DNA from: a virus
Taxonomy: Duplodnaviria > Heunggongvirae > Uroviricota > Caudoviricetes
Strand: one strand, 5' to 3'
DNA length: 64,000 bases
Virus record (IMG/VR): IMGVR_UViG_3300022555_000011
Location: 83,381 to 147,380 of that record
In this document: positions 2,115 through 41,807 of the stretch, in pieces
Layout: every line of letters begins with the position of its first letter
Position numbering within the stretch: the first letter of the stretch is position 1
Notes under the pieces: generated by a model
Databases searched by the model: none
Seen by the model: only the letters and a program-made list of their open reading frames with translations
Told to the model about the DNA's origin: nothing
Position numbers and translations under genes: made by a program

Positions 2115-2678
2115 ATGCCATTAGCACACTTTACAGCAGTGGAATCTCACAGAGAAAAGTGGGAACCTATACACCTTAATTTATTTGAGGCAACAATTAT
2201 TTTGCCTCAAGTTTTACAATCAATACATCCAAATGCAACACATTTGCTTTTGGAAAATACAGTTGAAGCTAATATGCCAACTTATCCAATACTTGCAACC
2301 GCAGAACAAAGATTTAAGTATTCAACTCGTCTTTTTGTTATGATGCCAGAGTCAACATCTATTAAGGATTTGAAAATTAAATTCAATCTTAATCAAAATG
2401 ATGATTATCAAATATTCTGTTTTAAAATGCTGAAAGATTGGTATGATTTAGCATGGAATAATGAAACTGGTACACTTCATTATAAGAAAAATTTAGTTGG
2501 TGATATTATTATACATCAACATGATAAAGAAGGTAAAGTTATTAGACGTGTAACTTATCATAATGCAATGATGTTAGCATTCTCTGGAATGGAATCATTA
2601 AATTGGGCATCAGGCACAGAAATAATGAGTCTTGATACAACATTTGCTGCAGACTACTGGGAAGATTTCTACTATTAG
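2115..2678 (+). CDS. hypothetical protein
   Basis: 187-aa ORF, no recognisable motif. Confidence 0.5.
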   Translation: MPLAHFTAVESHREKWEPIHLNLFEATIILPQVLQSIHPNATHLLLENTVEANMPTYPILATAEQRFKYSTRLFVMMPESTSIKDLKIKFNLNQNDDYQIFCFKMLKDWYDLAWNNETGTLHYKKNLVGDIIIHQHDKEGKVIRRVTYHNAMMLAFSGMESLNWASGTEIMSLDTTFAADYWEDFYY

Positions 2679-2801
2679 GCCCAAGTGCCTTATTTTAAGG
2701 TACTTTAAGAAAAGATATAATGAAAATTATATCTTTTTTTATTTTTATGATTATTGGGAACAACTTTTTATTTTTTATAAACTATATAAAATAAAAAAGA
2801 T

Positions 2802-3503
2802 ATGGAGAAAATATGTAGAATTTGTGGAAAGCCAAAAAATATAGAAGAATTTCATAAGAAAAAAGATACTCCAGATGGACATAGAAATGAGTGTAAAGAG
2901 TGTGTAAAAGGCATTCAAAAAAAATATAAAGAAGTTCCTGGATTTAAAGAAAAACAAAAAGAATATGATCAGAATTATTATTCTGAAAATAGATTAAAAT
3001 TATTGGAAAATAAAAAAGAATATCATAAAGAAAATAGAGACAAAATTCTTGTTCAAAAAGAACAATATAGAAATGATCCAAATAATGTTGATAAGATTAA
3101 AGATTATTTGAAAAATTATAGACTTGAAAATAAAGATAAATCAAAAGAATGGAGACAAAATAATAGACCTATATTAGCAAAAAATCAAGAAAATTATAGA
3201 TTAAATAATCCTCATATAGTTGCCTGGAGAAGTTTGCTTTATTCAACTTTAAAAAGGCTTGGTACTAAAAAACAAGGTCACACTATAGATATGTTAGGAT
3301 ATTCAGCATTACAACTAAAAGAACACATAGAAATCCAATTTTTGCCTGGAATGACTTGGGAAAATCACGGTGAGTGGCACATAGATCATGTAAGACCAGT
3401 GACTAATTTTCCAACAACAGAGGATGTTAAAATTGTTTGTGCATTAGAAAATTTACAACCTTTATGGGGATTTGATAATTTGTCAAAATCAAGTAGATAT
3501 TAA
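2802..3503 (+). CDS. HNH homing endonuclease with N-terminal CxxC zinc ribbon (paralog of 43568..44335)
   Basis: CRICGK...CKEC; WHIDHVRPV...NLQPLW..N HNH motif. Confidence 0.7.
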   Translation: MEKICRICGKPKNIEEFHKKKDTPDGHRNECKECVKGIQKKYKEVPGFKEKQKEYDQNYYSENRLKLLENKKEYHKENRDKILVQKEQYRNDPNNVDKIKDYLKNYRLENKDKSKEWRQNNRPILAKNQENYRLNNPHIVAWRSLLYSTLKRLGTKKQGHTIDMLGYSALQLKEHIEIQFLPGMTWENHGEWHIDHVRPVTNFPTTEDVKIVCALENLQPLWGFDNLSKSSRY

Positions 3504-16254: not shown

Positions 16255-16316
16255 CAAGCTAGACTGTTAGAATTTCATAGACCGTTCAGAAAACGGAAGC
16301 TTAGAAATTCAGTTAT

Positions 16317-16391: not shown

Positions 16392-16399
16392 CAAAAAAT

Positions 16400-16478
16400 G
16401 GTCCTGTATTGGCTCCGCCTTCTAAGCGAGATGTGCATAATGGAAATGAAAATGTGGGTTCGAGTCCCACCTGGATCA
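16400..16478 (+). tRNA. tRNA-like element A (paralog of 20881..20959), non-canonical interior
   Basis: T-arm GTGGG-TTCGAGT-CCCAC, acceptor GGTCCTG/CTGGATC with one T:T mismatch. Confidence 0.3.
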
Positions 16479-16494
16479 CTAAAAAATAATTGTT

Positions 16495-16746
16495 ATGAAT
16501 AAAGATGAATTTGTGAAATGGTTAGATGAAGATAGTAGTTTTTCAAGATCATATATAAATGATAATGATAATTGGGAAGAATTACAGAATTATGCAGAAT
16601 TTATTTTTGACTATTTGGAAGTAAATGAAAATTCTGCAACATTTAAATGGGAAGAATGGTATTGGGGTGGTAGAGAATATAGATCAACAGAATATTCATT
16701 TGACGAATTTATTGAAAGATATAATAATTTTGAATTAAGAAACTAA
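16495..16746 (+). CDS. hypothetical protein embedded in tRNA array
   Basis: ORF track, 83 aa. Confidence 0.45.
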   Translation: MNKDEFVKWLDEDSSFSRSYINDNDNWEELQNYAEFIFDYLEVNENSATFKWEEWYWGGREYRSTEYSFDEFIERYNNFELRN

Positions 16747-16810
16747 AAATTTCTTGTTCTTTGACATATTTAAGATTTAGAATTAGTGAAGATGTGAATC
16801 TTCACAAATT

Positions 16811-16887
16811 GGGGACGTAGCTCAATTGGCTAGAGCACTTGATTTGCATTCAAGAGGTTGGGATATCGTTCATCCTCGTCTCCACCA
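16811..16887 (+). tRNA. tRNA-Ala(TGC), CCA encoded
   Basis: GGGGACG acceptor with G3:U70, D-arm GCTC-AATTGGCTA-GAGC, anticodon loop TTTGCAT, 3' CGTCTCC-A-CCA. Confidence 0.6.
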
Positions 16888-16888
16888 T

Positions 16889-16961
16889 GGGTCATTGGTG
16901 AAGTTGACTATCACAGGAGTTTTGCACTCTCCAGTCACGGGTTTGATGCCCGTATGTATCC
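16889..16961 (+). pseudogene. degenerate tRNA-Ala-like pseudo-tRNA in tandem
   Basis: GGGTCAT...GTGA/TCAC D-stem, anticodon loop TTTGCAC, aberrant T-loop TTTGATG, 2 acceptor mismatches. Confidence 0.3.
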
Positions 16962-17029
16962 ACGATGTAGGGTTTTACGATTTTATATTTCCTTGAAACT
17001 TTTATAGTTGAGAAAGAAAAATCGAATTT

Positions 17030-17102
17030 GCAATTGTAGTTCAGTAGGTAGAATGCATCTGTGGTATAGATGATGTCGTGGGTTCGATTCCCACCTTTTG
17101 CT
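17030..17102 (+). tRNA. tRNA-Thr(GGT)
   Basis: TAGTTCAGTAGGTAGAAT D-arm, anticodon arm CATCT-GTGGTAT-AGATG, T-loop TTCGATT; 2 T:T mismatches in acceptor. Confidence 0.45.
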
Positions 17103-17158
17103 CTAAAATAAAGAAAACAAAAATGCTTTTTTGTTATATATAATAATAAAAAGTAAAT

Positions 17159-17842
17159 ATGAAATGGATAAAAGAATTAGATGAAAAAATAATAAATTTG
17201 GTTAAAAATGGCAAATCTTATAATGAAATTTCAGATGAAATTAATATGTCACCAAATTCTATTAGAAATAGATGTTTTAGATTAAATATAAAAAGTAGTA
17301 GTTATAAGAAAGATAAGACAAAAAAATTTTATTGTGTAGAATGCAATAAAGAATTTATTGATAATAAAGATAAAAATAGAAAATTTTGTAGTAATAGTTG
17401 TTCTGCAATATTTAATAATAAAACAATAACTAGAAAAAAAGTTACAGAAATTAAATTATGTTTAAATTGTAAATGTGAACTAGTTAATAAAAATAGTAAA
17501 TATTGTTCACAAAAATGTCAAATAGAATTTCAAACTGATAATCTTATAGAAAAATGGAAAAATGGTGAAATTGATGGTAACACTGGTATTAATAAAGAAG
17601 GTTTGTCTGTAACAATACGCAAATATATTATTAAAAAATATAACAATAAATGTTCAGTGTGTGGTTGGAATGAAGTTAATATTTTTACAGGTGTTGTCCC
17701 ATTAGAGGTTGACCATATTGATGGTAATCATTTAAATAGTAAAGAAGAAAATTTAAGACCTCTTTGTCCATCTTGTCATTCATTAACTGAATTTTATGGT
17801 GGTAGAAATAAAGGTAGAGGAAGAAAATATAGAAGAAAATAA
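17159..17842 (+). CDS. HNH homing endonuclease with tandem N-terminal zinc ribbons
   Basis: C..C...FCSNSCSAIFNN x2; EVDHIDGNHLN...LRPLCPSCHS. Confidence 0.7.
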   Translation: MKWIKELDEKIINLVKNGKSYNEISDEINMSPNSIRNRCFRLNIKSSSYKKDKTKKFYCVECNKEFIDNKDKNRKFCSNSCSAIFNNKTITRKKVTEIKLCLNCKCELVNKNSKYCSQKCQIEFQTDNLIEKWKNGEIDGNTGINKEGLSVTIRKYIIKKYNNKCSVCGWNEVNIFTGVVPLEVDHIDGNHLNSKEENLRPLCPSCHSLTEFYGGRNKGRGRKYRRK

Positions 17843-17844
17843 TT

Positions 17845-17930
17845 GCGAGAGTCGCATAGTGGTCGATTGCGCCAGCCTTCCAAGCTGGAAAGATAATATC
17901 ACACCGAGGGTTCGAATCCCTTTTCTCGCT
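17845..17930 (+). tRNA. tRNA-Gly(TCC) with class-II-like architecture (3-bp D-stem, about 16-nt variable arm)
   Basis: GCGAGAG acceptor, D-arm GCA-TAGTGGTCGAT-TGC, anticodon arm CCAGC-CTTCCAA-GCTGG (as in E. coli Gly-UCC), discriminator T. Confidence 0.5.
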
Positions 17931-17936
17931 CGTTTT

Positions 17937-18024
17937 GCAGTAATCTCCTAGTGGCCGATGGAACTGGGTTGCCAATCCAGTTAGTGAAAGCGCATCGTGG
18001 GTTCGAATCCCACTTACTGCTCCA
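17937..18024 (+). tRNA. tRNA-Gly(GCC) with class-II-like architecture, CCA encoded
   Basis: GCAGTAA/TTACTGC acceptor, D-arm TCC-TAGTGGCCGAT-GGA, anticodon arm CTGGG-TTGCCAA-TCCAG, 16-nt variable region, T-arm GTGGG-TTCGAAT-CCCAC, T-CCA. Confidence 0.55.
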
Positions 18025-18199
18025 AATTAAAATTAAAAATTATGAGTTCTAAAAACAAAAAAAGAAAAGAAAAAAATTGTTATTCAAATCATGGCTTTGC
18101 TTTGAAAGTAAGCGATATGAAATTGAAAAGATTACTTTATTTTAATGCTTCTATGAGAAGAAAAAATAATAAATTTGAAATAGAATAAAATATTAAAAT

Positions 18200-18275
18200 G
18201 CATCCTTCGCTTAGTTGGTTTTAAAGCATCTGTTTTACACACAGAGGATCGGCGGTTCGAATCCGTCAGGATGTA
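18200..18275 (+). tRNA. tRNA-Val(TAC)
   Basis: GCATCCT acceptor, D-arm GCTT-AGTTGGTTTTA-AAGC, anticodon arm TCTGT-TTTACAC-ACAGA, T-arm GGCGG-TTCGAAT-CCGTC. Confidence 0.6.
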
Positions 18276-18310
18276 CAAAATAAAAAGCAAATAAAAGACA
18301 AAGATGTGAT

Positions 18311-19210
18311 TTGACTTCAACTTTTTTTATATATAGTAATAAAATATGTATGGAAAATATGGAAAATAAAAAATGTCTTAATTGTGGTTGTTCACTAACA
18401 TATGAAAAAAGAAATAATAAATTTTGTGGAAGTTCATGTGCCGCTATTTTTAATAATAAAAATAGAAAAGGTAAATATGTTTATAATTTAAGTGAAACTG
18501 GATTAAATAACATTATTGAATCTAATAAAATTAATTTTCTTAAAAAAAGAAAACCTAAATTGTGCAAAAATTGTCAAAGTCCTTTTTATAACGAAAAAGG
18601 TGAAAAATTAAATTTTTGTTCTGATGATTGTAAAAAAGAATATAAAAAAGAAATTAAAGTTATTTCTGATGAAACTAAACAAAAGTTATCTAGTTCTTTG
18701 AAAAATTTTTATAAAACAGATGAAGGTGAAATAAATAAACAGAAATTAAGTTTATTATATATTGGAAAAATTTTTTCTGATGAATCTAAATTAAAATTAA
18801 GTATATCTGCTAAAAATAGATGTGAAGATATTAATGAAAGAATAAGATTGAGAGAAATCGGTAGAAAAGGAGGATTTGGTAAGAGTGGCTATACTATTAA
18901 TGGTATTTATTATCAGAGTACTTTTGAAAAAAAATGTTTTGAGTTTTTAGAAGAAAATAAAATAGAGTTTGAACCTCATAAGAGTTTGCCAGATTCTAGC
19001 AAAATATGTGATATATATTTTTCAGATAAAAATATATGGATTGAATTGGATGGAATTAATAGAGAAAAAAGAAAAAAATGGTTAAGTAAAGAATATAATT
19101 ATTGGTTAGATAAATTGAATGAATATAAAGAAAAAAAATTAGATTTTAAAATTTTTTATAATTATAATGAATTTATAGATTTTTTAAATACAAATGTCCC
19201 CATCGCTTAG
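18311..19210 (+). CDS. homing endonuclease: N-terminal zinc ribbon plus PD-(D/E)xK-like domain
   Basis: CLNCGCS...FCGSSCAAIFNN; ICDIYFSDKNIWIELDGINREK; stop TAG lies in downstream tRNA. Confidence 0.6.
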   Translation: MTSTFFIYSNKICMENMENKKCLNCGCSLTYEKRNNKFCGSSCAAIFNNKNRKGKYVYNLSETGLNNIIESNKINFLKKRKPKLCKNCQSPFYNEKGEKLNFCSDDCKKEYKKEIKVISDETKQKLSSSLKNFYKTDEGEINKQKLSLLYIGKIFSDESKLKLSISAKNRCEDINERIRLREIGRKGGFGKSGYTINGIYYQSTFEKKCFEFLEENKIEFEPHKSLPDSSKICDIYFSDKNIWIELDGINREKRKKWLSKEYNYWLDKLNEYKEKKLDFKIFYNYNEFIDFLNTNVPIA

Positions 19211-19271
19211 TTGGCTATAAAGCGTCTGTTTTACATGCAGAAGATCCAAGGTTCGAGTCCTTGTGGGGATA
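19196..19271 (+). tRNA. tRNA-Val(TAC) second copy, 5' 15 nt overlapped by endonuclease ORF
   Basis: GTCCCCA/TGGGGAT acceptor, same D-arm and anticodon arm as 18200..18275 (loop TTTACAT), T-loop TTCGAGT. Confidence 0.5.
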
Positions 19272-19280
19272 CAAATAAAT

Positions 19281-19354
19281 TTACGGATAGTTCAGTAGGT
19301 CAGAATACTTGTGTGACATGCAAGAGGTCGTGGGCTCGAATCCCACTCCGTAAA
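19281..19354 (+). tRNA. tRNA, anticodon loop GTGACAT (possibly Val-GAC)
   Basis: perfect acceptor TTACGGA/TCCGTAA, TAGTTCAGTAGGTCAGAAT D-arm, T-loop CTCGAAT. Confidence 0.4.
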
Positions 19355-19446
19355 CAAATTGTGATAAAATAATCAATATATTGTAATTTTTCTCACATTT
19401 TATATATTTTTTGAATATTTGTGATTTTTTTATCAATATATTTTAT

Positions 19447-19519
19447 GCAGTCTTAATATAGTTGGTTATTATTCTGGCTTTGTAACCCAGGTACGTGAGT
19501 TCGAATCTCACAGTCTGCT
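19447..19519 (+). tRNA. tRNA-Thr(TGT), class I
   Basis: acceptor GCAGTCT/AGTCTGC (1 mismatch), anticodon loop TTTGTAA, T-arm GTGAG-TTCGAAT-CTCAC. Confidence 0.45.
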
Positions 19520-19539
19520 CAAAAACTATTTTAATTTAC

Positions 19540-19610
19540 GCTTCTGTAATTTAATGTAAAATGCCGAATTCGTAACTCGGAGAATGCAAGTTCAAGACTT
19601 GTCAGAAGCT
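19540..19610 (+). tRNA. tRNA-Thr(CGT)-like with AT-rich D-arm lacking GG
   Basis: perfect acceptor GCTTCTG/CAGAAGC, anticodon loop TTCGTAA, T-loop TTCAAGA. Confidence 0.35.
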
Positions 19611-19623
19611 CAAAAACAAACAA

Positions 19624-19703
19624 CGAGGTTTTGGGGAGTCAGGTCACCCCGCCACATTTGGGATGTGGAGCAATTATCGCAGGTTCGAATCCTGCAACCT
19701 CGA
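19624..19703 (+). tRNA. tRNA-Pro(TGG) with 10-nt variable region
   Basis: CGAGGTT/AACCTCG acceptor, D-arm GGGG-AGTCAGGTCA-CCCC, anticodon arm CCACA-TTTGGGA-TGTGG, T-arm GCAGG-TTCGAAT-CCTGC, discriminator A. Confidence 0.55.
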
Positions 19704-19758
19704 CAATATTTAGGTTCAAATAGTATAAACTTGATATATTTTTATTACTATATACTAT

Positions 19759-20598
19759 ATGAATAATTATTTAGGATCAAAAGAGCATAAAGACAATGCA
19801 AGAAATTCAATTTTATTAGGATTAAAAAAATTAAAAGAATTAAAGGTAGAAAGAATTAAAAAATATTATTCCGAGCCATCTTTTTGTTTATGTTGTGATA
19901 AAGTATTAAGTTATGAAAAGAAGAATAATAAATTTTGCTCTAGTTCATGCTCTGCAAGTTATAATAATAAAGGACGAATAGTATCAGATGAGCAAAAAAA
20001 GAAAGTAAGTTTAAGTTTATCTGGCATTAAAAGAAACGAAAAATTAAGCGAAAATATTAAGGAACATAAAAGAATATGTTCATATTGCAAAAAAGAGTTC
20101 ATAGTATGGAGACTTAATAACAATACTTTATCACATAGTAAGCATTGTAGTTCTGGTTGTACTAATTCCAGTATGAAAGAAAAAGTTAGTTTGATAATAA
20201 AAGAAAAAGTTAAGAATGGAACACATAAAGGCTGGCAAAGTAGAAATATTGAAAGTTATCCAGAGAAATTTTTTAAGATAGTTTTAGAAAATAATGGGAT
20301 AAAATATAAATTCAATAAAGTTATTTCAAAAAGAAGTTTAGGTTTAGATTGTGATGCTAATTATTTTTTAGATTTTTATCTGAAAGATAAAAATATAGAT
20401 TTAGAAATAGATGGAAAGCAACATAATTATGAGGATAGAATAGAAAATGATGAATTAAGAGATTTTACATTGATAAAAAATGGATTTATAGTGTATAGAA
20501 TAAAGTGGAAAGAAATACAAACAAATGACGGTAAAAATTACATAAAAAATGAAATTGATAAGTTTTTAGAATTTTATAATAATGCCTTCTTCGCATAG
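19759..20598 (+). CDS. homing endonuclease: N-terminal zinc ribbon plus PD-(D/E)xK-like domain
   Basis: CLCCDK...FCSSSCSASYNN; LDFYLKDKNIDLEIDGKQH; stop TAG lies in downstream tRNA. Confidence 0.6.
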   Translation: MNNYLGSKEHKDNARNSILLGLKKLKELKVERIKKYYSEPSFCLCCDKVLSYEKKNNKFCSSSCSASYNNKGRIVSDEQKKKVSLSLSGIKRNEKLSENIKEHKRICSYCKKEFIVWRLNNNTLSHSKHCSSGCTNSSMKEKVSLIIKEKVKNGTHKGWQSRNIESYPEKFFKIVLENNGIKYKFNKVISKRSLGLDCDANYFLDFYLKDKNIDLEIDGKQHNYEDRIENDELRDFTLIKNGFIVYRIKWKEIQTNDGKNYIKNEIDKFLEFYNNAFFA

Positions 20599-20668
20599 CG
20601 GTCGATTGCACCTGACTTGTAATCAGGATCTGAATTAAGACACGTCGGTTCGAATCCGACAGAAGGCT
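20584..20668 (+). tRNA. tRNA with Thr(TGT) anticodon and class-II architecture (16-nt variable arm)
   Basis: perfect stems: GCCTTCT/AGAAGGC, D-arm GCA-TAGCGGTCGAT-TGC, CCTGA-CTTGTAA-TCAGG, GTCGG-TTCGAAT-CCGAC. Confidence 0.5.
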
Positions 20669-20674
20669 CAAAAT

Positions 20675-20746
20675 GGCTTCATAATTTAAGGGATAAAATT
20701 CGGGATTTCTAATCCCGCCATCTGAGTTCGAGTCTCAGTGAGGCTA
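20675..20746 (+). tRNA. tRNA-Arg(TCT)
   Basis: D-stem ATTT/AAAT, anticodon arm CGGGA-TTTCTAA-TCCCG, T-arm CTGAG-TTCGAGT-CTCAG. Confidence 0.55.
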
Positions 20747-20753
20747 CTATAAC

Positions 20754-20825
20754 GCAGAAGAAGCTCATTAGGTCGAGTAGGAGATTTCAATCTTCAGGTA
20801 GCGAGTTCGAATCTCGTCTTCTGCT
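20754..20825 (+). tRNA. tRNA-like with irregular anticodon arm (loop TTTCAA(T); TCA or TTC?)
   Basis: perfect acceptor GCAGAAG/CTTCTGC, D-arm GCTC-ATTAGGTC-GAGT, T-arm GCGAG-TTCGAAT-CTCGT. Confidence 0.35.
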
Positions 20826-20880
20826 CAAAAATATGTCGGGAACGGGAACGCACTGCTGGCGAGCAGCCCGCCGACACCAT

Positions 20881-20959
20881 GCACCTGTAATGGCGGAGTT
20901 TCCTAAACTCTATGTGCATAACGGAATGAAAAATGTGGGTTCGAATCCCATCTGGTGCC
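20881..20959 (+). tRNA. tRNA-like element B (paralog of 16400..16478)
   Basis: T-arm GTGGG-TTCGAAT-CCCAT, acceptor GCACCTG/CTGGTGC with T:T mismatch at same position as element A. Confidence 0.3.
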
Positions 20960-21047
20960 CAATTCTAAATCTTAAATTAATCTCTCTAAAAATATTAAAC
21001 TTTTATATTTTTTTAATTTATAATATTTTATAAATAAATTTTCAAAA

Positions 21048-35801: not shown

Positions 35802-36194
35802 TCAAACTTTGAATCTCTTTTTCATTTTTAAACATTTGCCTATTACTTTATGCGGATCAAATTTTTTAGTTATTTTTTTATATGTTGGTTTTTGATGAAA
35901 AGGTGTCGCACCAGACGAACCAGATGTTCCTGTAGAAAAATATATCAATGGTTTATTATCACCATAGTTGTGAATTATATTTTCATCATATAGTAATTTG
36001 AATAATTTGATTATTTGACCATTAGTTGTGCTTATGTTTAATAGTTTCAACTTCCTAATATTAGTTGATGATAAATGATAACATGTTTGTACAACAATAC
36101 CATTTATTGAATCTTCCACAATTTCAATTTCAGGAAAAGTGTGAATAAATTCTCTAATTATTTCATTGTTACTATTTACTATTTTAAAATACAT
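35802..36194 (-). CDS. hypothetical protein (MYFKI family, intact paralog)
   Basis: ORF track. Confidence 0.45.
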   Translation of the reverse strand: MYFKIVNSNNEIIREFIHTFPEIEIVEDSINGIVVQTCYHLSSTNIRKLKLLNISTTNGQIIKLFKLLYDENIIHNYGDNKPLIYFSTGTSGSSGATPFHQKPTYKKITKKFDPHKVIGKCLKMKKRFKV

Positions 36195-36634
36195 TTTCTA
36201 TTTCAAATTTTAATTTTTCAATTAAAATATCAGCAATTGACATTTCTGGAGTTTCACTAGTATTGATATTTAGATCGAAATTTAAATCAGTAGAAGAAGG
36301 TTTTGAACCACTTGATCCACTTGTTCCACTTCTACCATTTGTTCCACTAGAACCAGTAGTACCAGATTCTTGATAAAATTGAGGTTTTTCTTCACTAAGA
36401 GTAATTAACTCTTTATCGTACAATAATGTTTGCAATGTTTTCAATCTTTTTTTTTGCAGATTCATCATGCAAACTTAGAATTTTAATTTTTCTAATTTGT
36501 TTTATGTCTAGATAATAGTAATCCATAATTGGATGTTTAAATCTATCATCATTCATTTTTTCTACTTCTGAAAAAGTACTGATAACTTTATCAATTTCTT
36601 CTTTTTCTTGCCATTTTTTAATTGTAAAATACAT
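36184..36634 (-). pseudogene. MYFKI-family paralog split by frameshift at an A9 tract (pseudogene or slippage-dependent)
   Basis: ORFs 36413..36634 and 36184..36468 match N- and C-parts of 35802..36194; frames switch at A9 (36447-36455). Confidence 0.4.
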
Positions 36635-36865
36635 AAACTTTTTTTATTTTTTATATACATAATCTAACAATTAGTTTAGATAAAAATATTTTGAAAATAA
36701 ATTAAACTTTTCAATTTTCCTAAACTATAAACTTATTACACTTTTCTGAAAAGAAAAAAGTTCATTGGAAATAGAAAAATATGACATTTTTTAAAAAATA
36801 TATAATAATGTTGAAAATTTCTTAAACTTTTTAATTTTTTTGAAATAACAATATATTCGTTCTTT

Positions 36866-37275
36866 GACAAAACATAAAAATTATTGATGAATACATACAG
36901 CGACAAAAAACCCTTATATGGAAAAAATCGTATTCAGTTAATTTTTATAAAAATATAATACTCATAAAGAATACATTCTGCAAAATCTAAAAACTAGATA
37001 AATAACAGAAAAGCTGTGAGTGTGTAAGTGTTTTTAACTTTTCTAAGGTTTCCACTTTGTTTGCACACCACTATAAATAGGCTAAAACAGAACAAAAAAT
37101 TTTGAAAAGAAAGTTTACTCTGGGTTTTTGAGAAAAACCCTTGTATTCTGTTGAGATTTTCACATCTAGACCTATGGATCTGTACGGATTCGGCTGGCCT
37201 GGAACAAATCCTAGGTTTTGATACCTGGGTGAAGATCCCAACTAAATGAATTTTTAGTTGGGATTTTTTATTTAA
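36866..37275 (+). ncRNA. candidate structured non-coding transcript / long 5' leader
   Basis: about 650-bp ORF-free region, TTGACA-like element near 36866, local GC-rich hairpins, ends in terminator. Confidence 0.25.
37243..37275 (+). terminator. intrinsic terminator upstream of 37312
   Basis: ATCCCAACTAAATGAATTTTTAGTTGGGATTTTTT. Confidence 0.6.
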
Positions 37276-37298
37276 TAACAAAAACAAAAAAAAACAAA

Positions 37299-37305
37299 AA
37301 GGAGG
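37299..37305 (+). promoter_or_regulatory. strong Shine-Dalgarno AAGGAGG 7 nt upstream of ATG 37312
   Basis: seen in sequence. Confidence 0.6.
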
Positions 37306-37311
37306 TTTATT

Positions 37312-37746
37312 ATGCAATCAGCATCAAATTTAGTAAATGTGACAAGACAAGAAAATACCTTAACAAATAATGGTATGGTAACAAATTCAACCAGTTTGAA
37401 TTCAAATGTTGATATGTTCTTTTTAGCGGGAGCTTCAAGGAAAATGTCAGAAAAAGATATTGAAACCCTTTTCCAAAAGGCGATTGTGGAAGATCCATCA
37501 GTTGCTTTAAAACTTATGTTCTGGTCAAGAGACCCAAGAGGTGGAGCTGGAGAAAGAAGGTTCTTTAGAATTTGTGCTATGTTTCTTCGTAAGAATTATC
37601 CAGAATATTTACTTAAAAATTTGAAACATATTGCTGAATATGGAAGATATGATGATTTGACTTTTTTGTTGAGCGAAGGTGAAAATGATAAAGTGGATAA
37701 AGAAATTCTATCATATATAAAAGAAACTTTAGAAGGTGACAAATGA
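37312..37746 (+). CDS. N-terminal piece of a DUF2828/TROVE-vWA-like protein
   Basis: FWSRDPRGGAGERRFFRICAMFLR; gene interrupted by LAGLIDADG ORF. Confidence 0.45.
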   Translation: MQSASNLVNVTRQENTLTNNGMVTNSTSLNSNVDMFFLAGASRKMSEKDIETLFQKAIVEDPSVALKLMFWSRDPRGGAGERRFFRICAMFLRKNYPEYLLKNLKHIAEYGRYDDLTFLLSEGENDKVDKEILSYIKETLEGDK

Positions 37747-38611
37747 TTATATTGATTTTAGTGTAATTGACTCTGAATTAAAAGCATATTTAATTGGATT
37801 TTTTTATGCTGATGCTACTTTATCAGAGTATGTGATTTCAGTTAGGTTATCAATAAAAGATAAAGCACATCTTGAGAAATTGGCAAATATTTTAGATAAG
37901 CCAACTTCTATTAAAGATGTAAAAAATAAAAATGGTAAAATTTATAAAGCGATTGGTTTTAATATATGTAGTAAACAAACTGTTGACTCATTGAGAAAAA
38001 TTGGATTTGTTGTAAATAAGACTTATCAAATTGATGATGTTGTTTTTAATAATGTTCCTGATAATTTAAAAAGACATTTTGCCAGAGGATTTTTAGATGG
38101 TGATGGTACTATATTTTTTTCAAAATGGAAAGATAAAAAACATAATTGGAATAGAAATCCAAGATGCTCTGTCGGTTTTGTTTCTTATAATAGTAGATTA
38201 TTAGAAACTATTAAAAATTGGTTACAACAAGTTCTAAATTTGGAAGATAAAAATATTAAAAGTGATAATTTTGAAGATTTAGAAAAAAATGAAAAATATT
38301 GGAGACTTATTTATAGTGGAAATAGAGTTAGTAAAAAAATATTAGATTTACTATATGATAATTCCACAATTTATATGGACAGAAAATATGAAAAATATTT
38401 AGAAATTGCTGTATATACACCTAAAGGTTATCATTTTAATACTGCTGAAAAAGTTTGGAAGGTTCCTTATAAGGATGAATTTAATAAACAAAAAGCAAAG
38501 AGATTTAAAGATGAAGTTGATGCACAGAATTTTTTAAAAGATATAAAAAACAATAACAATAAAAATAAAATTAAGACGTATGAAAAATTTATTAGCAAAA
38601 TGGTTAAGTAG
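37736..38611 (+). CDS. LAGLIDADG homing endonuclease (GTG start)
   Basis: KAYLIGFFYADATL and FARGFLDGDGTIFF double LAGLIDADG motifs. Confidence 0.7.
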   Translation: MTNDYIDFSVIDSELKAYLIGFFYADATLSEYVISVRLSIKDKAHLEKLANILDKPTSIKDVKNKNGKIYKAIGFNICSKQTVDSLRKIGFVVNKTYQIDDVVFNNVPDNLKRHFARGFLDGDGTIFFSKWKDKKHNWNRNPRCSVGFVSYNSRLLETIKNWLQQVLNLEDKNIKSDNFEDLEKNEKYWRLIYSGNRVSKKILDLLYDNSTIYMDRKYEKYLEIAVYTPKGYHFNTAEKVWKVPYKDEFNKQKAKRFKDEVDAQNFLKDIKNNNNKNKIKTYEKFISKMVK

Positions 38612-39563
38612 AAAAGGATATGAATTTAACAAGGTTCGTAAGTATATGGGATTATCCCCAAAGGAATATCGTAAACTTGTTGTTGGTTTATCAAATACTG
38701 TTGAGCAAAAAATGTGTGCAAAGGATTGGGAAGAAATTACCTATTCACATGTACCTTCAGTTGCTATGAACAAGTATAGAAAAGCATTCTTAAAGAATGA
38801 TATGGGCCGTTTCAATGAGTATATTGAACTGGTACACGAAGGTAAGGAAGAAATCAAGGCTGGTGTTTTGTTTCCACATATGTTATATGAAGCTTGGAAG
38901 AGACATGAAGATAAAAGAGCAGTCGAGGCACAATGGAATAATCTTCCAGACTTCATGGCAGATTCGAATGAGAGAGTCATTCCAGTTTGCGACGTATCAG
39001 GTAGTATGTCAGGTCTTCCAATGTCAGTTTCAGTAGCATTGGGTGTATATATGTCTGAAAGAAATAGAAGTATTTTCAAGGACGCATTTATTACATTCTC
39101 AAGTGAACCAACAATGCAATATTTGAAAGGTTCATTGTATGAAAGACTTCGTCAGTTGGAAAGTGCTGAATGGGGTATGAGCACTAACTTAGAAGGTGTT
39201 TATAAGTTGATATTGAATAAAGCAACTAAGAATAACCTTCCAGAGAGCGAAATGCCAACTAAAATATTGATTATTTCTGATATGGAATTTAATCAATGTG
39301 CTCAAAATGGAAATGATACTGCTTTATCAATGATAAAGAGAATGTATTCTGAGGCTGGTTATAAATTGCCAGATATCATTTTCTGGAATGTTAATGGTAG
39401 ACTTGGTAATGTTCCTTCAAACTTTAAAGCAAAGAATGTAGGACTAGTTTCAGGATTCAGTCCAGCAATATTAAAATCTGTTCTATCAGGTAGCATTGAT
39501 ACACCAGAAAGTTTGATGTTGAAAACTATAAATAGTGAAAGGTACCAACCAATCACAGCTTAA
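38580..39563 (+). CDS. C-terminal piece: vWA-domain protein
   Basis: VIPVCDVSGSMSG MIDAS motif; ILIISDMEFNQ. Confidence 0.55.
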   Translation: MKNLLAKWLSRKGYEFNKVRKYMGLSPKEYRKLVVGLSNTVEQKMCAKDWEEITYSHVPSVAMNKYRKAFLKNDMGRFNEYIELVHEGKEEIKAGVLFPHMLYEAWKRHEDKRAVEAQWNNLPDFMADSNERVIPVCDVSGSMSGLPMSVSVALGVYMSERNRSIFKDAFITFSSEPTMQYLKGSLYERLRQLESAEWGMSTNLEGVYKLILNKATKNNLPESEMPTKILIISDMEFNQCAQNGNDTALSMIKRMYSEAGYKLPDIIFWNVNGRLGNVPSNFKAKNVGLVSGFSPAILKSVLSGSIDTPESLMLKTINSERYQPITA

Positions 39564-39564
39564 A

Positions 39565-39595
39565 TAAAAAAAACCTCTTCGGAGGTTTTTTTATT
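39565..39595 (+). terminator. intrinsic terminator
   Basis: AAAAAACCTCTTCGGAGGTTTTTTT. Confidence 0.7.
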
Positions 39596-39909
39596 TTAAA
39601 TATTTTTGTATATTTGTTGTAATAAATATGTAATTATGAAAAAAAATAAATCTGATAGAATCAAACAGGAGTTTTCAGAAAATAAAGATGGTTCAAGATC
39701 ACCATAATCTATACCACAAATAATCGCCATTAGTATTCGTTATTCTTAATATTTAATTTTTCTTGTAATTCTTCAAGTGTGTATTTATTATATGCTGCTA
39801 TTAATACTTTTAGTTTTAATTCATCATTAATATTTTCTGGTTTAATTCTAAGATCATCAGGCTTACTTCTAGCCCATCTTCTATTTTCACTTGTAATCAT
39901 ATTGTTTAA

Positions 39910-40983
39910 TTATTTTTTGAATAAGTCTGAAATAGATGCGTGTGTATTTACTCTATTTATAGACTTTGCTATTAAGTCTGCTACACTTATAACTTTTATT
40001 TTATCTGATTTGATTGTCAATGGAATTGTGTCAGTGATTATAATTTCTGTAATTTTAGATTTTTCAATTCTCTCATATGCTGGACCTGATAAAACTGCGT
40101 GTGGAATACAAGCTCTTACACTTAATGCTCCTTTTTTGTTTATTAAAATATCAGCGGCTGTAGTAATTGTTCCAGCAGTGTCAATAATATCATCAATAAA
40201 AATAACATTACAACCATTAACGTCTCCAATAAGTTCCATTTTATCTATCGTATTTGCAACACTTCTTTCTTTATACATAAAGATCATTCTAGTCTTAAAG
40301 TGCTCTGCATAAGGTTTTACTCTTTTTCCGCCACCTTCATCTGGTGAGCCAATGACCATATTTTTAAGGTTTAATGTTTCAATATATGGCATAAAAACAT
40401 AAGAACTTTTTAATGCGTCAACTGGAATATTGAAAAATCCACTAATTTGATCTGCATGAAGGTCTATTGTTATGATTCTGGTTGCTCCTGCGGTTTGAAT
40501 TATGTCCGCTAACATTTTAGCTGTGATTGGAACTCTTGGTCTATCTTTTCTATCTTGTCTTGCCCATCCAAAGTATGGAATAACTGCAACAATGTCTTTT
40601 GCTGATGCCCTCTTAGCTGCATCAATCATTTGAAGTAATTCAAAAACACTGTCAGATGATGAGATGAGATATTTTAGATATTCTCTGGCTTCTTCTTGTT
40701 TTTCTGGTGGTATAAGTTGTACTATTCTCTCAGCTTCATTATAAGATGAATATAGAGAGGATATGAGGAAGACCTTATCACCTCTTACATTTTCATCTAA
40801 ACCATGGCAAAACTCACCGTCTGAGAAAACTTTGAAATTACTTTTGCTTAGTTCGACACCATATGAAGAAGCTATTTGTTCTGCTAAATAGATTGATTTA
40901 GAACTTGAAAAAATTTTTACTGACATATTTTCTTTTAATTTGGGGTTTATATGAAAAATATTGTTAAAAGTTTTGTTCGTCAC
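39910..40983 (-). CDS. prs: ribose-phosphate pyrophosphokinase (PRPP synthetase)
   Basis: GWARQDRK, DLHADQISGFFNIPVD, DDIIDTAGT. Confidence 0.85.
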   Translation of the reverse strand: MTNKTFNNIFHINPKLKENMSVKIFSSSKSIYLAEQIASSYGVELSKSNFKVFSDGEFCHGLDENVRGDKVFLISSLYSSYNEAERIVQLIPPEKQEEAREYLKYLISSSDSVFELLQMIDAAKRASAKDIVAVIPYFGWARQDRKDRPRVPITAKMLADIIQTAGATRIITIDLHADQISGFFNIPVDALKSSYVFMPYIETLNLKNMVIGSPDEGGGKRVKPYAEHFKTRMIFMYKERSVANTIDKMELIGDVNGCNVIFIDDIIDTAGTITTAADILINKKGALSVRACIPHAVLSGPAYERIEKSKITEIIITDTIPLTIKSDKIKVISVADLIAKSINRVNTHASISDLFKK

Positions 40984-41038
40984 GCAATATAAGAATCTTT
41001 TTTAAAACAAAAAAAATTCAGATTTCTCTGAATTTTTT
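40950..41038. repeat. direct repeat copy A (about 88 bp, includes prs 5' end, A-run, terminator hairpin)
   Basis: near-identical to 41959..42046. Confidence 0.6.
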
Positions 41039-41040
41039 AT
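41012..41040. terminator. bidirectional terminator (inside repeat copy A)
   Basis: AAAAAATTCAGATTTCTCTGAATTTTTT. Confidence 0.6.
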
Positions 41041-41054
41041 TTTAACATTATTTA

Positions 41055-41807
41055 TTAAATACTAACATCTTTTATAACCCAAAGGTCATCTGCCAAATTA
41101 TTATTTGTTACATAAGCATAAGGTATAGTGAAATAGCCTTTCATTCCCCAATTTGGACCCCAACTATTTCTAACAATGAATCTTTGTGTAGAATCATCAT
41201 AACCAACACAAAGAACAGCATGACCACCAAGCACAGTTTCATTTTTAGCTGGCATTGGTACAATCCCAGTTTTTGCAACAGTATCAGATTCAAAACTTGT
41301 ATAGACTGTAAATCCAAATACAAAAGGATCACCAGCAGCAAGACATTGTTTAAGAGAATTCAAATCTTGTGGTACTCTTGAATAAACTTTAGATACATAT
41401 TTTAATCCTTCTTTAAATGCCGTTGTTGATGGCTTTGTTTTAAATTTTGAAATAACATATGGCCAAGTTGTTTCATTGCAAGCACCTTGTGTGCTCACAG
41501 CTTTCATACCATCACGTATCATTGCACCAGAATCTTGTTTTACTGTATTTTCAATAACTCTTTCGTTATAATATATAAATAATCTAGATGGCACAAAAGG
41601 TTTAGGGTCTTTTTTCTTTATTTGTTCATATTCTATTGAGCCAGCGATTGCATTTCCTGTGCATGATCCAAGTTGACCTTGATCATAAACTGGTGGACAT
41701 AAAGGTGATAAATCAACCTTAGGCGGCAAAGTAATGGGAGCCATTACTTTATAAGTGTAGTCTCTTTGATCTGGTAGATCAGGCTTCCAACCATAATTTT
41801 TTTTCAT
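41055..41807 (-). CDS. papain-like (C1A) cysteine protease
   Basis: QGQLGSCTGNA (Cys), GGHAVLCVGYDD (His), NSWGPNWGMKGY. Confidence 0.75.
   Translation of the reverse strand: MKKNYGWKPDLPDQRDYTYKVMAPITLPPKVDLSPLCPPVYDQGQLGSCTGNAIAGSIEYEQIKKKDPKPFVPSRLFIYYNERVIENTVKQDSGAMIRDGMKAVSTQGACNETTWPYVISKFKTKPSTTAFKEGLKYVSKVYSRVPQDLNSLKQCLAAGDPFVFGFTVYTSFESDTVAKTGIVPMPAKNETVLGGHAVLCVGYDDSTQRFIVRNSWGPNWGMKGYFTIPYAYVTNNNLADDLWVIKDVSI

What the first reader, a model, noticed from the sequence alone, without database searches (positions are those of the whole stretch)
37312..39563. LAGLIDADG endonuclease splits a DUF2828/vWA-like gene into pieces
The N-terminal ORF at 37312..37746 contains FWSRDPRGGAGERR. 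The C-terminal ORF at 38580..39563 contains the vWA MIDAS motif DVSGSMSG. A free-standing LAGLIDADG endonuclease at 37736(GTG)..38611 separates them. The three ORFs are in three different frames and overlap at both junctions, so this is not an in-frame intein. The closest precedents are T4 gene 39/60 split by mobA and Aeh1 nrdA split by mobE. It is either genes-in-pieces or a group I intron carrying the endonuclease. The upstream half has the only strong Shine-Dalgarno site in the region.
Basis: partly seen in the sequence, partly recalled or inferred. Interest (0 to 1): 0.6.

Follow-up and report, generated by a model that had tools for sequence, protein, structure and literature searches.

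The report
Homing endonuclease splits phage Ro60 gene
A selfish DNA-cutting gene has landed inside a phage's Ro60-like RNA-binding gene and cut it into two separately translated halves, and related phages show every stage from the uninterrupted gene to a permanently split gene from which the invader has since been lost.

Summary
Three overlapping ORFs in three frames lie at 37312-37746, 37736-38611 and 38580-39563. The outer two are the N- and C-terminal parts of one DUF2828/DUF7788 protein, which fold search shows to be a Ro60 homolog. The middle ORF is a monomeric, two-motif LAGLIDADG endonuclease with a C-terminal Arm/AP2-like DNA-binding domain.

- No intron RNA family matches in eight loci.
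- The endonuclease ORF fills the whole insert.
- Related metagenomic phages keep the same split, with the same stop and the same ATG, after the endonuclease has been partly deleted (220 or 315 nt left) or lost entirely (22-nt spacer).
- Insert lengths fall in all three mod-3 classes.
- Both halves remain under purifying selection (dN/dS 0.06-0.23).

Close relatives carry the intact 461-462-aa gene at the same syntenic locus. The window's gene is 91-98% identical to such an allele, except for a foreign tract of about 1.08 kb (about 37560-38640) shared by all split alleles. That is the signature of homing with co-conversion. The split falls in a 3-residue turn between helices. A distant homolog is split at the same turn by an opposite-strand GIY-YIG-like gene.

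This is a new member of a known kind (Aeh1 nrdA/mobE, T4 39/60/mobA), with an unusually complete decay series.

The parts
37312..37746 (+). N piece of the split Ro60-like gene (144 aa). It ends ...IKETLEGDK followed by TGA.
   Evidence: ORF. Pfam DUF2828 positions 1-117, E 3e-14. Collinear with residues 1-136 of intact P0001 and L013. dN/dS 0.09-0.21 among split alleles.
37300..37305 (+). AGGAGG Shine-Dalgarno sequence of the N piece, the only strong SD in the window.
   Evidence: 1 of 55 long ORFs has a strong SD. It is conserved upstream of intact and split alleles.
37560..37743 (+). Left co-converted flank: the N-tail segment of the split-specific haplotype, with 8 extra residues relative to intact alleles.
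   Evidence: 60-70% DNA identity to intact L013 here in all but one short bin (a 16-nt bin at 88%), against 83-100% upstream within the gene. 53% aa identity to intact alleles against 75-82% to other split alleles. Median dN/dS 0.175.
37744..38585 (+). Inserted segment by collinearity with intact alleles (842 nt). It begins with the N-piece stop TGA and ends with ATG AAA, the first two codons of the C piece.
   Evidence: Junction alignments. LEGDK|NLLAKWL has the same length as the intact LEKENGLLAKWL.
37736..38611 (+). Free-standing LAGLIDADG homing endonuclease gene (291 aa, GTG start). It overlaps the N-piece stop by 11 nt and the C-piece start by 32 nt.
   Evidence: Pfam LAGLIDADG_3 and LAGLIDADG_1 above cut-off. 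AF2 model pLDDT 88 with two alpha-beta-beta-alpha-beta-beta-alpha repeats. Foldseek hits to bI3 maturase, I-AniI, I-OnuI and PI-SceI, E down to 1e-10. dN/dS 0.19-0.31. The start codon is GTG or ATG in relatives.
37778..37816 (+). LAGLIDADG motif 1 (LKAYLIGFFYADA; catalytic-position Asp D26).
   Evidence: G21 and D26 are invariant, and A17, Y18 and A25 nearly invariant, in 40 homologs.
38072..38110 (+). LAGLIDADG motif 2 (HFARGFLDGDGT; catalytic-position Asp D123).
   Evidence: F115, R117, G118, D121, G122, D123 and G124 are nearly invariant.
38432..38605 (+). C-terminal three-stranded sheet plus helix of the endonuclease, an Arm/AP2-like DNA-binding domain.
   Evidence: Model strands 233-235, 240-246 and 252-257 and helix 260-290. 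Pfam Arm-DNA-bind_4 gives E 0.022 here and 26.6 bits (cut-off 22.3) in the L174 ortholog.
38580..39563 (+). C piece of the split Ro60-like gene (327 aa). It starts MKNLLAKWLSRKGYEF and contains the vWA MIDAS motif DVSGSMSG.
   Evidence: ORF. Pfam DUF2828 positions 298-401 plus DUF7788. 98% aa identity to intact P0001. dN/dS 0.06-0.23. Its A-rich, SD-less leader resembles the other genes of the window.
38586..38640 (+). Right co-converted flank (C-head of the split haplotype).
   Evidence: 58-69% DNA identity to intact L013 here, rising to at least 93% from 38640. 89-94% aa identity among split alleles. Contigs L004-L006 end at the window-equivalent position 38629.
39567..39592 (+). Terminator-like hairpin closing the N-HEG-C unit.
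   Evidence: No terminator-like site lies between 37268 and 39355, so the three ORFs are probably co-transcribed (inference).
37095..37275 (+). Conserved structured non-coding element upstream of the gene, ending in the terminator hairpin 37231-37268. This is context, not part of the split.
   Evidence: Present in 27 loci (17 distinct sequences) upstream of intact and split alleles. The 5' hairpin has compensatory changes and the terminator stem is invariant. Fold z = -4.28.

Best explanation
A free-standing LAGLIDADG homing endonuclease gene (HEG) has inserted into a phage Ro60-like gene. The insertion point is a 3-residue turn between two helices of the N-terminal helical domain, just before the invariant LLAKW..R motif.

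The inserted cassette supplies a stop codon for the upstream part and an ATG for the downstream part. The gene is therefore expressed as two polypeptides (144 aa and 327 aa) that must associate non-covalently to rebuild the Ro60 ring. There is no RNA or protein splicing.

The HEG is probably translated at a low level by re-initiation at a GTG or ATG that overlaps the N-piece stop. It probably cuts intact alleles at the conserved site and is copied in by recombinational repair, together with about 185 bp of left flank and about 55 bp of right flank (co-conversion). This explains the foreign tract in the window.

Once fixed, the HEG decays by internal deletion, but the split persists as a scar.

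Shown here: the anatomy, the intact alleles, the decay series, the mosaic tract, purifying selection, and the absence of intron or intein features. Inferred: endonuclease activity and target, co-transcription, translational coupling, and physical reassembly of the two pieces.
For: (1) The two ORFs are halves of one gene. They match the same Pfam family. They are collinear with intact 461-486-aa homologs. About 150 of about 165 fetched loci are intact.

(2) An empty-site allele exists. P0001 is an intact 462-aa protein whose C-terminal 327 residues are 98% identical to the C piece. It sits in the same gene neighbourhood, in a sister sample of split contigs.

(3) The split persists without the HEG. 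L044 keeps 220 nt of insert, L022/L176 keep 315 nt (that C piece is on 22 contigs), and L010-12/L017 keep a 22-nt spacer (at least 7 contigs). All keep the N stop and ATG AAA AAT.

(4) The distance between conserved anchors is 845, 830 or 1106 nt (mod 3 = 2), 846 or 324 nt (mod 3 = 0), and 34 or 229 nt (mod 3 = 1). Both ORFs are open in every case.

(5) Selection: N piece dN/dS 0.09-0.21, C piece 0.06-0.23, split-specific N tail median 0.175 at dS 0.73.

(6) No group I or II intron family matches at E<=10 in the window or E<=1 in seven other loci. The HEG ORF spans the whole insert.

(7) Mosaic: against intact L013 the window is 91-98% identical outside codons 88-162 and 50-53% identical inside. 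That segment is shared by all split alleles and is linked to the split state in 15 of 15 split clusters and 0 intact proteins.

(8) The HEG looks functional: both catalytic-position Asp residues are conserved, it has the LAGLIDADG fold, and dN/dS is 0.19-0.31.

(9) The C piece's SD-less, A-rich leader is the norm in this genome; 54 of 55 ORFs lack a strong SD.

(10) The split lies in a turn between helix 121-133 and helix 137-142 of a confident model (pLDDT 93).

(11) A distant homolog (L125) is independently split at the same turn by an opposite-strand GIY-YIG-like ORF.
Against: - There are no expression or protein data. Nothing shows that the two polypeptides are made in useful amounts, that they associate, or that the complex binds RNA.
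- Part of the pairwise divergence used for dN/dS may predate HEG arrival in each lineage. The split-specific tail addresses this only partly.
- The HEG-less scar allele is a single protein lineage (P0058, plus a recombinant P0056), so its long-term persistence after HEG loss is not demonstrated.
- The top fold matches of the HEG include two intron maturases (bI3, I-AniI).
- A candidate excision 37738..38582 would obey the group I rule (5' exon ends in U, insert ends in G) and restore the frame in the window's own allele.
- Rfam's group I model is known to be insensitive to ORF-filled, AT-rich introns.
Confidence: 0.82

Rival explanations
1. The insert is a group I (or other self-splicing) intron that carries the LAGLIDADG ORF. 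The mRNA is spliced to give a full-length Ro60-like protein.
For: LAGLIDADG enzymes are typically intron- or intein-encoded. The best fold matches include the maturases bI3 and I-AniI. Excision of 37738..38582 (845 nt) would leave a 5' exon ending in U and an insert ending in G, and an in-frame LEG|KNLLAKW (read).
Against: No intron family matches at E<=10 in the window or E<=1 in 7 related loci. The ORF occupies the entire insert, which leaves no non-coding core. Alleles with 22-, 220- and 315-nt inserts keep both ORFs. Insert lengths fall in all three mod-3 classes, including a full-length HEG allele (L018, 846 nt). A stop at the junction and an ATG exactly at the start of homology are conserved in every allele. 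Splicing would not require either.
Confidence: 0.04
2. The split gene is a pseudogene. The HEG insertion killed the gene, and the two ORFs are decaying remnants.
For: The gene is probably accessory, since many phages lack it. No expression data exist.
Against: Both ORFs stay open in at least 9 distinct alleles with dS of 0.5-2.4 and dN/dS of 0.06-0.23. The split-specific N tail has dN/dS 0.175. A random 327-codon frame of this composition was stop-free in 0 of 20,000 simulations. The stop, ATG and flanking codons are conserved.
Confidence: 0.05
3. The gene was already split, by an intercistronic spacer as in gene 43 of phage 44RR, and the HEG later invaded the intergenic gap. On this view the HEG did not cause the split.
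For: HEG-less split alleles with a 22-nt spacer exist. Free-standing HEGs usually sit in intergenic regions (PMC2988022).
Against: The 22-nt spacer is the 3' end of the HEG coding sequence. Intermediates keep both HEG ends (L044) or the HEG 3' third (L022/L176), which indicates progressive deletion from a HEG+ state. HEG+ alleles span the whole diversity of the split clade (C pieces 76-99% identical), whereas the scar allele is one lineage. The HEG start codon lies inside the N-piece tail, and the HEG reads through the spacer into the C piece.
Confidence: 0.07
4. The arrangement is a 'fractured gene': the halves carry split-intein parts, and protein trans-splicing restores one polypeptide. Alternatively, it is a degenerate in-frame intein.
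For: It has the same layout as the fractured genes of Dassa et al. (host N part, free-standing HEG, host C part; PMC2677866). LAGLIDADG domains are common in inteins (one search hits PI-SceI and the TliVMA intein).
Against: The N and C pieces are collinear with the intact protein with only 8 extra residues, which leaves no room for an IntN of about 100 aa or an IntC of about 35 aa. There is no Hint or intein Pfam hit. The three ORFs are in different frames. The first LAGLIDADG helix starts at HEG residue 15.
Confidence: 0.01
5. Ribosomes bypass the insert, as in T4 gene 60. They would take off at the AAA before the TGA and land on the AAA after the ATG, producing a full-length protein, at least in the short-spacer alleles.
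For: AAA-TGA ... ATG-AAA flanks the insert in W, L009, L010, L022, L044 and L174. Hopping would give LEGDK-NLLAKWL, exactly collinear with intact alleles. The T4 precedent is linked to a HEG (mobA; PMC2988022).
Against: In L173 the last sense codon is GAA, which does not match the AAA. In L018 it is AAG. The gap is 830-1106 nt in the HEG+ alleles. The ATG is universally conserved, which bypass does not need. No take-off hairpin or nascent-peptide signal was identified.
Confidence: 0.02

Closest known systems
Aeromonas phage Aeh1 nrdA-a / mobE / nrdA-b (genes-in-pieces ribonucleotide reductase)
   Same: A free-standing HEG is inserted into a conserved coding region that is intact in relatives. 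It creates two ORFs that are separately translated and (in Aeh1, shown biochemically) reassemble into a functional enzyme. The HEG start overlaps the upstream stop, suggesting translational coupling (PMC2988022).
   Different: The HEG is LAGLIDADG plus an Arm/AP2-like domain rather than HNH. The host gene is an accessory Ro60-like RNA-binding protein, not an essential enzyme. Here alleles with decayed or lost HEG that retain the split are documented. Function of the split protein is untested.
T4 topoisomerase genes 39/60 split by mobA
   Same: A free-standing HEG with a GUG start that overlaps the upstream ORF splits a gene that is contiguous in other phages (PMC2988022).
   Different: T4 gene 60 additionally has the 50-nt translational bypass. 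There is no evidence for bypass here, and the HEG family is different.
Gene 43 (DNA polymerase) split in Aeromonas phage 25 (seg-like HEG) and in 44RR (IC-UTS spacer without HEG)
   Same: The same gene is split at one site, with a HEG in one phage and only a short untranslated spacer in another (PMC2988022). This parallels the HEG+ and 22-nt-spacer alleles here.
   Different: For gene 43 the direction (HEG first or split first) is unresolved. Here deletion intermediates (220-nt and 315-nt remnants) indicate HEG first, then decay.
Fractured genes with split inteins and a free-standing HEG (Dassa et al. 2009, PMC2677866)
   Same: The gene order is host-N, free-standing HEG, host-C on one strand, in environmental phage sequences.
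   Different: Fractured genes carry split-intein halves that trans-splice the protein. None are present here.
Ro60 / Rsr and phage phiLo Ro60 (host gene family)
   Same: The intact homolog's model matches Ro60 structures (1yvr, 2i91, 9l5y, 2nvo). It has a helical ring plus a vWA domain with a MIDAS motif. A structured RNA element lies next to the gene, as Y RNAs do for Ro60 (PMC4201824, PMC12135203).
   Different: Sequence identity to solved Ro60 structures is 11-17%. It is classified in Pfam as DUF2828/DUF7788, not TROVE. RNA partners are unknown. No split Ro60 has been described in the papers searched.

Membership tests
Genes-in-pieces created by a free-standing homing endonuclease | The flanking ORFs are collinear parts of a gene that is a single ORF in relatives. 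| tested here: met
   About 150 intact loci. The closest intact allele is 91% identical overall.
Genes-in-pieces created by a free-standing homing endonuclease | The intervening ORF is a homing endonuclease that is not embedded in an intron or intein. | tested here: met
   LAGLIDADG by Pfam, model and Foldseek. No intron RNA family. Different frames and no Hint domain.
Genes-in-pieces created by a free-standing homing endonuclease | Each piece has its own stop or start, and both are maintained by selection. | tested here: met
   The stop and ATG are conserved in all 9 or more alleles. dN/dS is 0.06-0.23.
Genes-in-pieces created by a free-standing homing endonuclease | The two polypeptides reassemble into a functional protein. 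| not testable with these tools
   The only support is indirect: the split lies in an inter-helix turn of a confident model.
Group I intron with an intron-encoded endonuclease | A conserved ribozyme core is detectable as RNA. | tested here: not met
   No Intron_gpI hit, or any intron family, at E<=10 or E<=1 in 7 loci. The model is insensitive to ORF-filled introns, so this alone is not decisive.
Group I intron with an intron-encoded endonuclease | Excision at fixed junctions restores the reading frame in all functional alleles. | tested here: not met
   Insert lengths are 845/830/1106 nt, 846/324 nt and 34/229 nt, which is mod 3 = 2, 0 and 1.
Group I intron with an intron-encoded endonuclease | Spliced mRNA is observed. 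| not testable with these tools
   No transcript data are available.
Intein / split-intein fractured gene | The insert is in frame with the host and has Hint splicing blocks (or IntN/IntC halves) at the junctions. | tested here: not met
   Three frames. No Hint domain. The pieces are collinear with the intact protein with only 8 extra residues.
LAGLIDADG homing endonuclease (monomeric, two-motif) | Two LAGLIDADG helices with acidic catalytic residues, and a duplicated alpha-beta-beta-alpha-beta-beta-alpha fold. | tested here: met
   D26 and D123 are conserved. Topology from the model. Foldseek E of 1e-10 to 1e-6 to I-AniI, bI3 and I-OnuI.
LAGLIDADG homing endonuclease (monomeric, two-motif) | Site-specific cleavage of the HEG-less allele, and homing. 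| not testable with these tools
   Indirect evidence only: a foreign tract of about 1.08 kb around the HEG in an otherwise L013-like gene, and presence/absence polymorphism in sister samples.
Ro60 / TROVE-vWA RNA-binding proteins | A helical-repeat ring plus a vWA domain with a MIDAS motif. | tested here: met
   Model pLDDT 93. The top 8 PDB matches are all Ro60/Rsr, TM up to 0.63. DVSGSMSG is in the C piece.
Ro60 / TROVE-vWA RNA-binding proteins | Binds Y RNA or misfolded RNA. | not testable with these tools
   A conserved structured RNA element lies upstream but matches no Rfam family.
T4 gene 60-type translational bypass | Matched take-off and landing codons, with a stop directly after the take-off codon. 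| tested here: inconclusive
   AAA-TGA...ATG-AAA occurs in most alleles, but L173 has GAA and L018 has AAG. The gap is 28 nt in scar alleles and over 800 nt in HEG+ alleles.

The most novel reading that the evidence does not exclude
In the short-spacer 'scar' alleles, and conceivably as the selective reason for the conserved AAA-stop ... ATG-AAA design, ribosomes hop from the AAA before the stop to the AAA after the ATG. This would make a full-length Ro60-like protein. It would be a second natural example of T4 gene 60-type programmed bypass, again associated with a homing-endonuclease cassette.
Probability: 0.02. Interest if true: 0.8.

Novelty: new member of a known kind. Interest (0 to 1): 0.45.

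Why it matters
Gene fission by a free-standing homing endonuclease is known from only a handful of phage cases. A 2023 survey still cites 'at least one instance' (PMC10448857), and the known cases involve HNH or GIY-YIG enzymes in essential replication genes.

This locus adds a LAGLIDADG enzyme and a non-enzymatic, ring-shaped RNA-binding protein. More usefully, one gene family shows the whole trajectory:
- the intact target
- the invaded, split gene with a co-converted flank haplotype
- internally deleted endonuclease remnants
- a 22-nt scar with the split retained

This bears on an open question raised for T4-type gene 43: does the HEG cause the split, or does it invade an existing one? It also shows how a selfish element can permanently convert one gene into two subunit genes.

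The same structural turn is hit independently by a GIY-YIG-like gene in a distant homolog. That marks it as a site that is both permissive in the protein and attractive as a conserved DNA target.

It also gives a natural split point for engineering two-piece Ro60 proteins.

Tried and rejected
- Megablast of 36000-41000 against GenBank phages found no match, so the window is not a deposited phage.
- A back-translated search for the HEG in IMG/VR gave only one 30%-identical locus and was uninformative. The C-piece search was far more productive.
- A sequence search of the HEG against the PDB gave only marginal hits: spurious RecA repeats, and 6bcg at E 0.011. Fold search was needed.
- The literature search for DUF2828 returned only unrelated plant and animal papers.
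- The window-versus-L044 segment comparison did not show a clear cassette/body contrast, with 87-100% identity throughout. It is not used as evidence.
- The automatic left anchor for L173 was a false match inside the HEG. That row is ignored. By ORF coordinates, L173 is in class mod 3 = 2.
- The ATGA repeat at both insert ends (37743-46 and 38580-83) was considered as a target-site duplication. It was rejected because deleting between the repeats (837 nt) would not restore the frame.
- The third protein-database search (for intact carriers of the split haplotype) was not spent, because it would not change the verdict.
Full report
**1. Observation**

The three ORFs are exactly as described.
- N ORF: 37312..37746, 144 aa, contains FWSRDPRGGAGERR.
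- Middle ORF: 37736..38611, 291 aa, GTG start.
- C ORF: 38580..39563, 327 aa, contains DVSGSMSG.

They are in three frames. They overlap by 11 nt at the left junction and 32 nt at the right.

Pfam places the N ORF at DUF2828 profile positions 1-117. It places the C ORF at DUF2828 positions 298-401, followed by DUF7788. The middle ORF matches LAGLIDADG_3 and LAGLIDADG_1, both above their curated cut-offs. The middle ORF also has a weak Arm-DNA-bind_4 match at its C-terminus, and that match is significant in an ortholog.

The same three-ORF arrangement, with an identical endonuclease protein, is on at least 8 independent metagenome contigs. It is therefore not an assembly or frameshift artefact.

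**2. The flanking ORFs are one gene, and that gene is a Ro60 homolog**

Both halves hit the same annotated gene ('Ro-like RNA-binding protein', 'DUF2828') in hundreds of phages, adjacently and in one frame.

Intact single-ORF homologs were read in megaphage LR756501 (486 aa) and Stenotrophomonas phage DLP_6 (466 aa). The window's pieces abut on them almost seamlessly. The N piece ends ...IKETLEGDK* and the C piece starts MKNLLAKWLSRKG, against ...LESKDGLLGKWLPRKG in the intact protein.

An AlphaFold2 model of the closest intact relative, P0001, has pLDDT 93 and pTM 0.91. Its eight best PDB matches are all Ro60/Rsr structures, including the recently solved Ro60 of Thermus phage phiLo (PMC12135203).

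Counting from the invariant W142, the split corresponds to N136|G137 of P0001. This is the 3-residue turn between helix 121-133 and the short helix 137-142 that carries the invariant L138, L139, K141, W142 and R145.

**3. Relatives show every state of the site**

A search with a conceptual N+C fusion returned two groups:
- Intact 461-462-aa proteins at up to 91% identity.
- A series of split C pieces (324-334 aa, 76-99% identical), all beginning MKNLLAKWL(S/N)RKGYEF.

P0001, the 91% intact allele, lies in the same gene neighbourhood as the window. The 130-aa and 149-aa genes are upstream, and PRPP synthetase and a C1 peptidase are downstream. It comes from a sister sample of contigs that carry the split gene. 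This is an empty-site allele.

Classifying about 170 fetched loci by tblastn and reading the junctions gave the following states.

| State | Loci | Detail |
|---|---|---|
| Intact | about 150 | single ORF |
| Split, full HEG | window, L003-7, L009, L018, L173, L174 | HEG 286-384 aa, 72-77% identical to one another |
| Split, HEG internally deleted | L044 | 220 nt left, both HEG ends kept |
| Split, HEG remnant | L022/L176 | 315 nt left, about 9 N-terminal codons plus the C-terminal third; that C piece is on 22 contigs |
| Split, no HEG | L010, L011, L012, L017 | only a 22-nt spacer, which corresponds to the last ~20 nt of the HEG insert |

Every split allele keeps a stop directly after ...LEG(D/E)(K/E), or after ...LEK in L018. 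Every split allele keeps ATG AAA AAT TTA TTA GCA.

**4. Intron, intein and split intein are rejected**

- No intron RNA family matches the window at E<=10, or seven other loci at E<=1.
- The endonuclease ORF fills the insert from end to end, leaving no non-coding core.
- A 22-nt spacer cannot be a ribozyme, yet the flanking ORFs persist in that allele.
- The distance between conserved flanking anchors is 845, 830 or 1106 nt (mod 3 = 2), 846 or 324 nt (mod 3 = 0), and 34 or 229 nt (mod 3 = 1). Excision at fixed junctions could restore the frame in only one of these classes, yet both ORFs are open in all of them.
- An intein is excluded by the three frames and the absence of any Hint domain. The first LAGLIDADG helix begins at residue 15 of the middle ORF.
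- The 'fractured gene' arrangement of Dassa et al. requires split-intein halves at the ends of the pieces (PMC2677866). Here the pieces are collinear with the intact protein with only 8 extra residues.

**5. Both pieces are maintained**

Pairwise Nei-Gojobori dN/dS values among split alleles:

| Gene | dN/dS | dS |
|---|---|---|
| N piece | 0.09-0.21 | 0.4-1.8 |
| C piece | 0.06-0.23 | 0.6-2.4 |
| HEG | 0.19-0.31 | 0.5-0.8 |

Some body divergence could predate HEG arrival, so I also analysed the N-tail segment that exists only in the split haplotype. Its median dN/dS is 0.175 at dS 0.73.

The C piece has no Shine-Dalgarno sequence, but neither do 54 of the 55 long ORFs in the window. Its leader is 63% A, which is typical here. 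Together with a T9SS Por_Secre_tail gene next to the locus in L176, this suggests a Bacteroidota host with SD-independent initiation (inference).

Terminator-like hairpins bracket the unit at 37231-37268 and 39567-39592, and none lies between the three ORFs. Co-transcription is therefore likely (inference).

**6. Evidence for homing**

Against the intact allele L013, the window's gene is 98% and 93% identical in codons 1-87. It is 53% identical in codons 88-144 and 50% in codons 145-162, then 91-98% identical after that.

At the DNA level the foreign tract runs from about 37560 to about 38640. That is the 842-nt insert plus about 185 nt of left flank and about 55 nt of right flank.

All split alleles share this flank haplotype, although their gene bodies are only about 80% identical to the window. 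The haplotype has an 8-residue insertion, GRYDD in place of GRWDD, and WLSRKGYEF in place of WLPR.... It occurs in 15 of 15 matching split C-piece clusters and in no intact protein among the top hits.

This is the pattern expected from double-strand-break repair with co-conversion of flanking markers, which also makes the recipient resistant to re-cleavage.

Three contigs end at the window-equivalent position 38629, at the right edge of the tract. This is consistent with the assembly graph branching where the shared cassette meets different backgrounds. It is suggestive only.

**7. The endonuclease**

The model (pLDDT 88) has two alpha-beta-beta-alpha-beta-beta-alpha repeats, followed by a three-stranded sheet and a long helix at residues 233-290.

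Foldseek matches bI3 maturase, I-AniI, I-OnuI, PI-SceI and others. G21 and D26 in motif 1 are invariant and D121-G124 in motif 2 are nearly invariant across 40 homologs.

Its start codon overlaps the N-piece stop: GGTGACAAATGA in the window, and ATG in L173. The same kind of arrangement is discussed for mobE, mobA, segC and segF as translational coupling or re-initiation that keeps HEG expression low (PMC2988022).

Relatives at 28-34% identity occur in crAss-like, Lak, Staphylococcus, Bacillus and Flavobacterium phages.

**8. Direction of evolution**

Intact alleles dominate throughout the family, so intact is the ancestral state.

The remnant alleles keep HEG ends, and the 22-nt spacer is HEG 3' sequence. 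The scar state is therefore derived by deletion and is not an ancestral intergenic gap.

The alternative, that the HEG invaded a pre-existing split, keeps a small probability. This question was left open for gene 43 of phage 25 and 44RR (PMC2988022).

**9. An independent hit at the same turn**

In L125, a homolog only about 49% identical, the gene is again in two ORFs: 163 aa ending after ...KKGLNDG plus 28 residues, and 369 aa with 21 extra residues before SLCAKWMPR.

They are separated by an opposite-strand 241-aa ORF with a GIY-YIG-like N-terminus. Its SegE_GIY-YIG match has E 1e-4 at 22.7 bits, just under the 25-bit cut-off.

Two HEG families have therefore split this gene at the same place. 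The site is permissive in the protein, and it lies next to the most conserved DNA of the N-terminal domain.

**10. Comparison and verdict**

This works like, and qualifies as, a genes-in-pieces locus of the Aeh1 nrdA/mobE and T4 39/60/mobA type.

New elements:
- the HEG family (LAGLIDADG plus an Arm/AP2-like domain)
- the host gene (Ro60-like)
- a natural series that documents invasion, decay and a persistent split

Untested:
- endonuclease activity
- expression of the pieces
- reassembly of the two pieces

A gene 60-type bypass across the AAA-stop ... ATG-AAA design cannot be strictly excluded for the short-spacer alleles. It is unlikely, because the codon match is broken in L173 and the ATG is universally conserved.

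Noticed in passing
window 37095-37275 (+): A conserved structured non-coding element lies immediately upstream of the Ro60-like gene. It consists of a 5' hairpin with compensatory changes, an invariant single-stranded TTGTATTCTGTTGAGATTTT, lineage-variable middle hairpins, and a sequence-invariant terminator hairpin AAATCCCAACT...AGTTGGGATTTTTT. It was found in 27 loci (17 distinct sequences) and matches no Rfam family. The invariant motif resembles the 3' arm of the terminator, so it could be an attenuator-type leader. Alternatively it could be a Y-RNA-like partner of the Ro60 protein.
   Followed up: partly
window 37300-37305: The N piece has the only strong Shine-Dalgarno sequence (AGGAGG) among 55 long ORFs of the window, and it is conserved in relatives. 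A lone strong SD in an otherwise SD-less, probably Bacteroidota-infecting, phage genome may be regulatory.
   Followed up: partly
L125:1688-4044: A distant DUF2828/Ro60-like homolog is independently split at the same inter-helix turn by an opposite-strand GIY-YIG-like ORF (2160..2885, minus strand). Each piece has an extra tail or head of about 20-28 residues.
   Followed up: partly
L173:1878-3032 and L174:1896-3032: Orthologous endonucleases of 378-384 aa carry an insertion of about 90 residues relative to the window's 291-aa enzyme. In L173 there is a weak SPOR-like match at residues 256-300. The nature of the insertion was not examined.
   Followed up: no
window 16165-20960: A cluster of 17 tRNA genes on the + strand. 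Several are unusually long calls (86-93 nt: Pro, Gly, Arg, Thr) and one has an undetermined anticodon. Some may contain introns or be mis-called.
   Followed up: no
window 39910-41807 (-): A PRPP synthetase-like gene (39910..40983) and a papain-family C1 peptidase-like gene (41055..41807) lie downstream of the locus. The Pfam assignments come from the syntenic P0001 contig, and the pair is conserved in synteny in relatives.
   Followed up: no
L002:1312-2352 (LR756501, 735-kb megaphage): An RtcB-like RNA ligase ORF, judged by eye from its motifs (GGGNHF, HGAGR), sits directly upstream of the megaphage's intact Ro60-like gene. This recalls the bacterial rsr-yrl-rtcBA operon.
   Followed up: no
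L004, L005, L006 (contig ends), equivalent to window 38629: Three independent metagenome contigs stop within about 10 nt of the right edge of the co-converted tract. This suggests strain-level heterogeneity (the cassette in several backgrounds, or HEG+ and HEG- populations) that breaks the assemblies at this point.
   Followed up: partly
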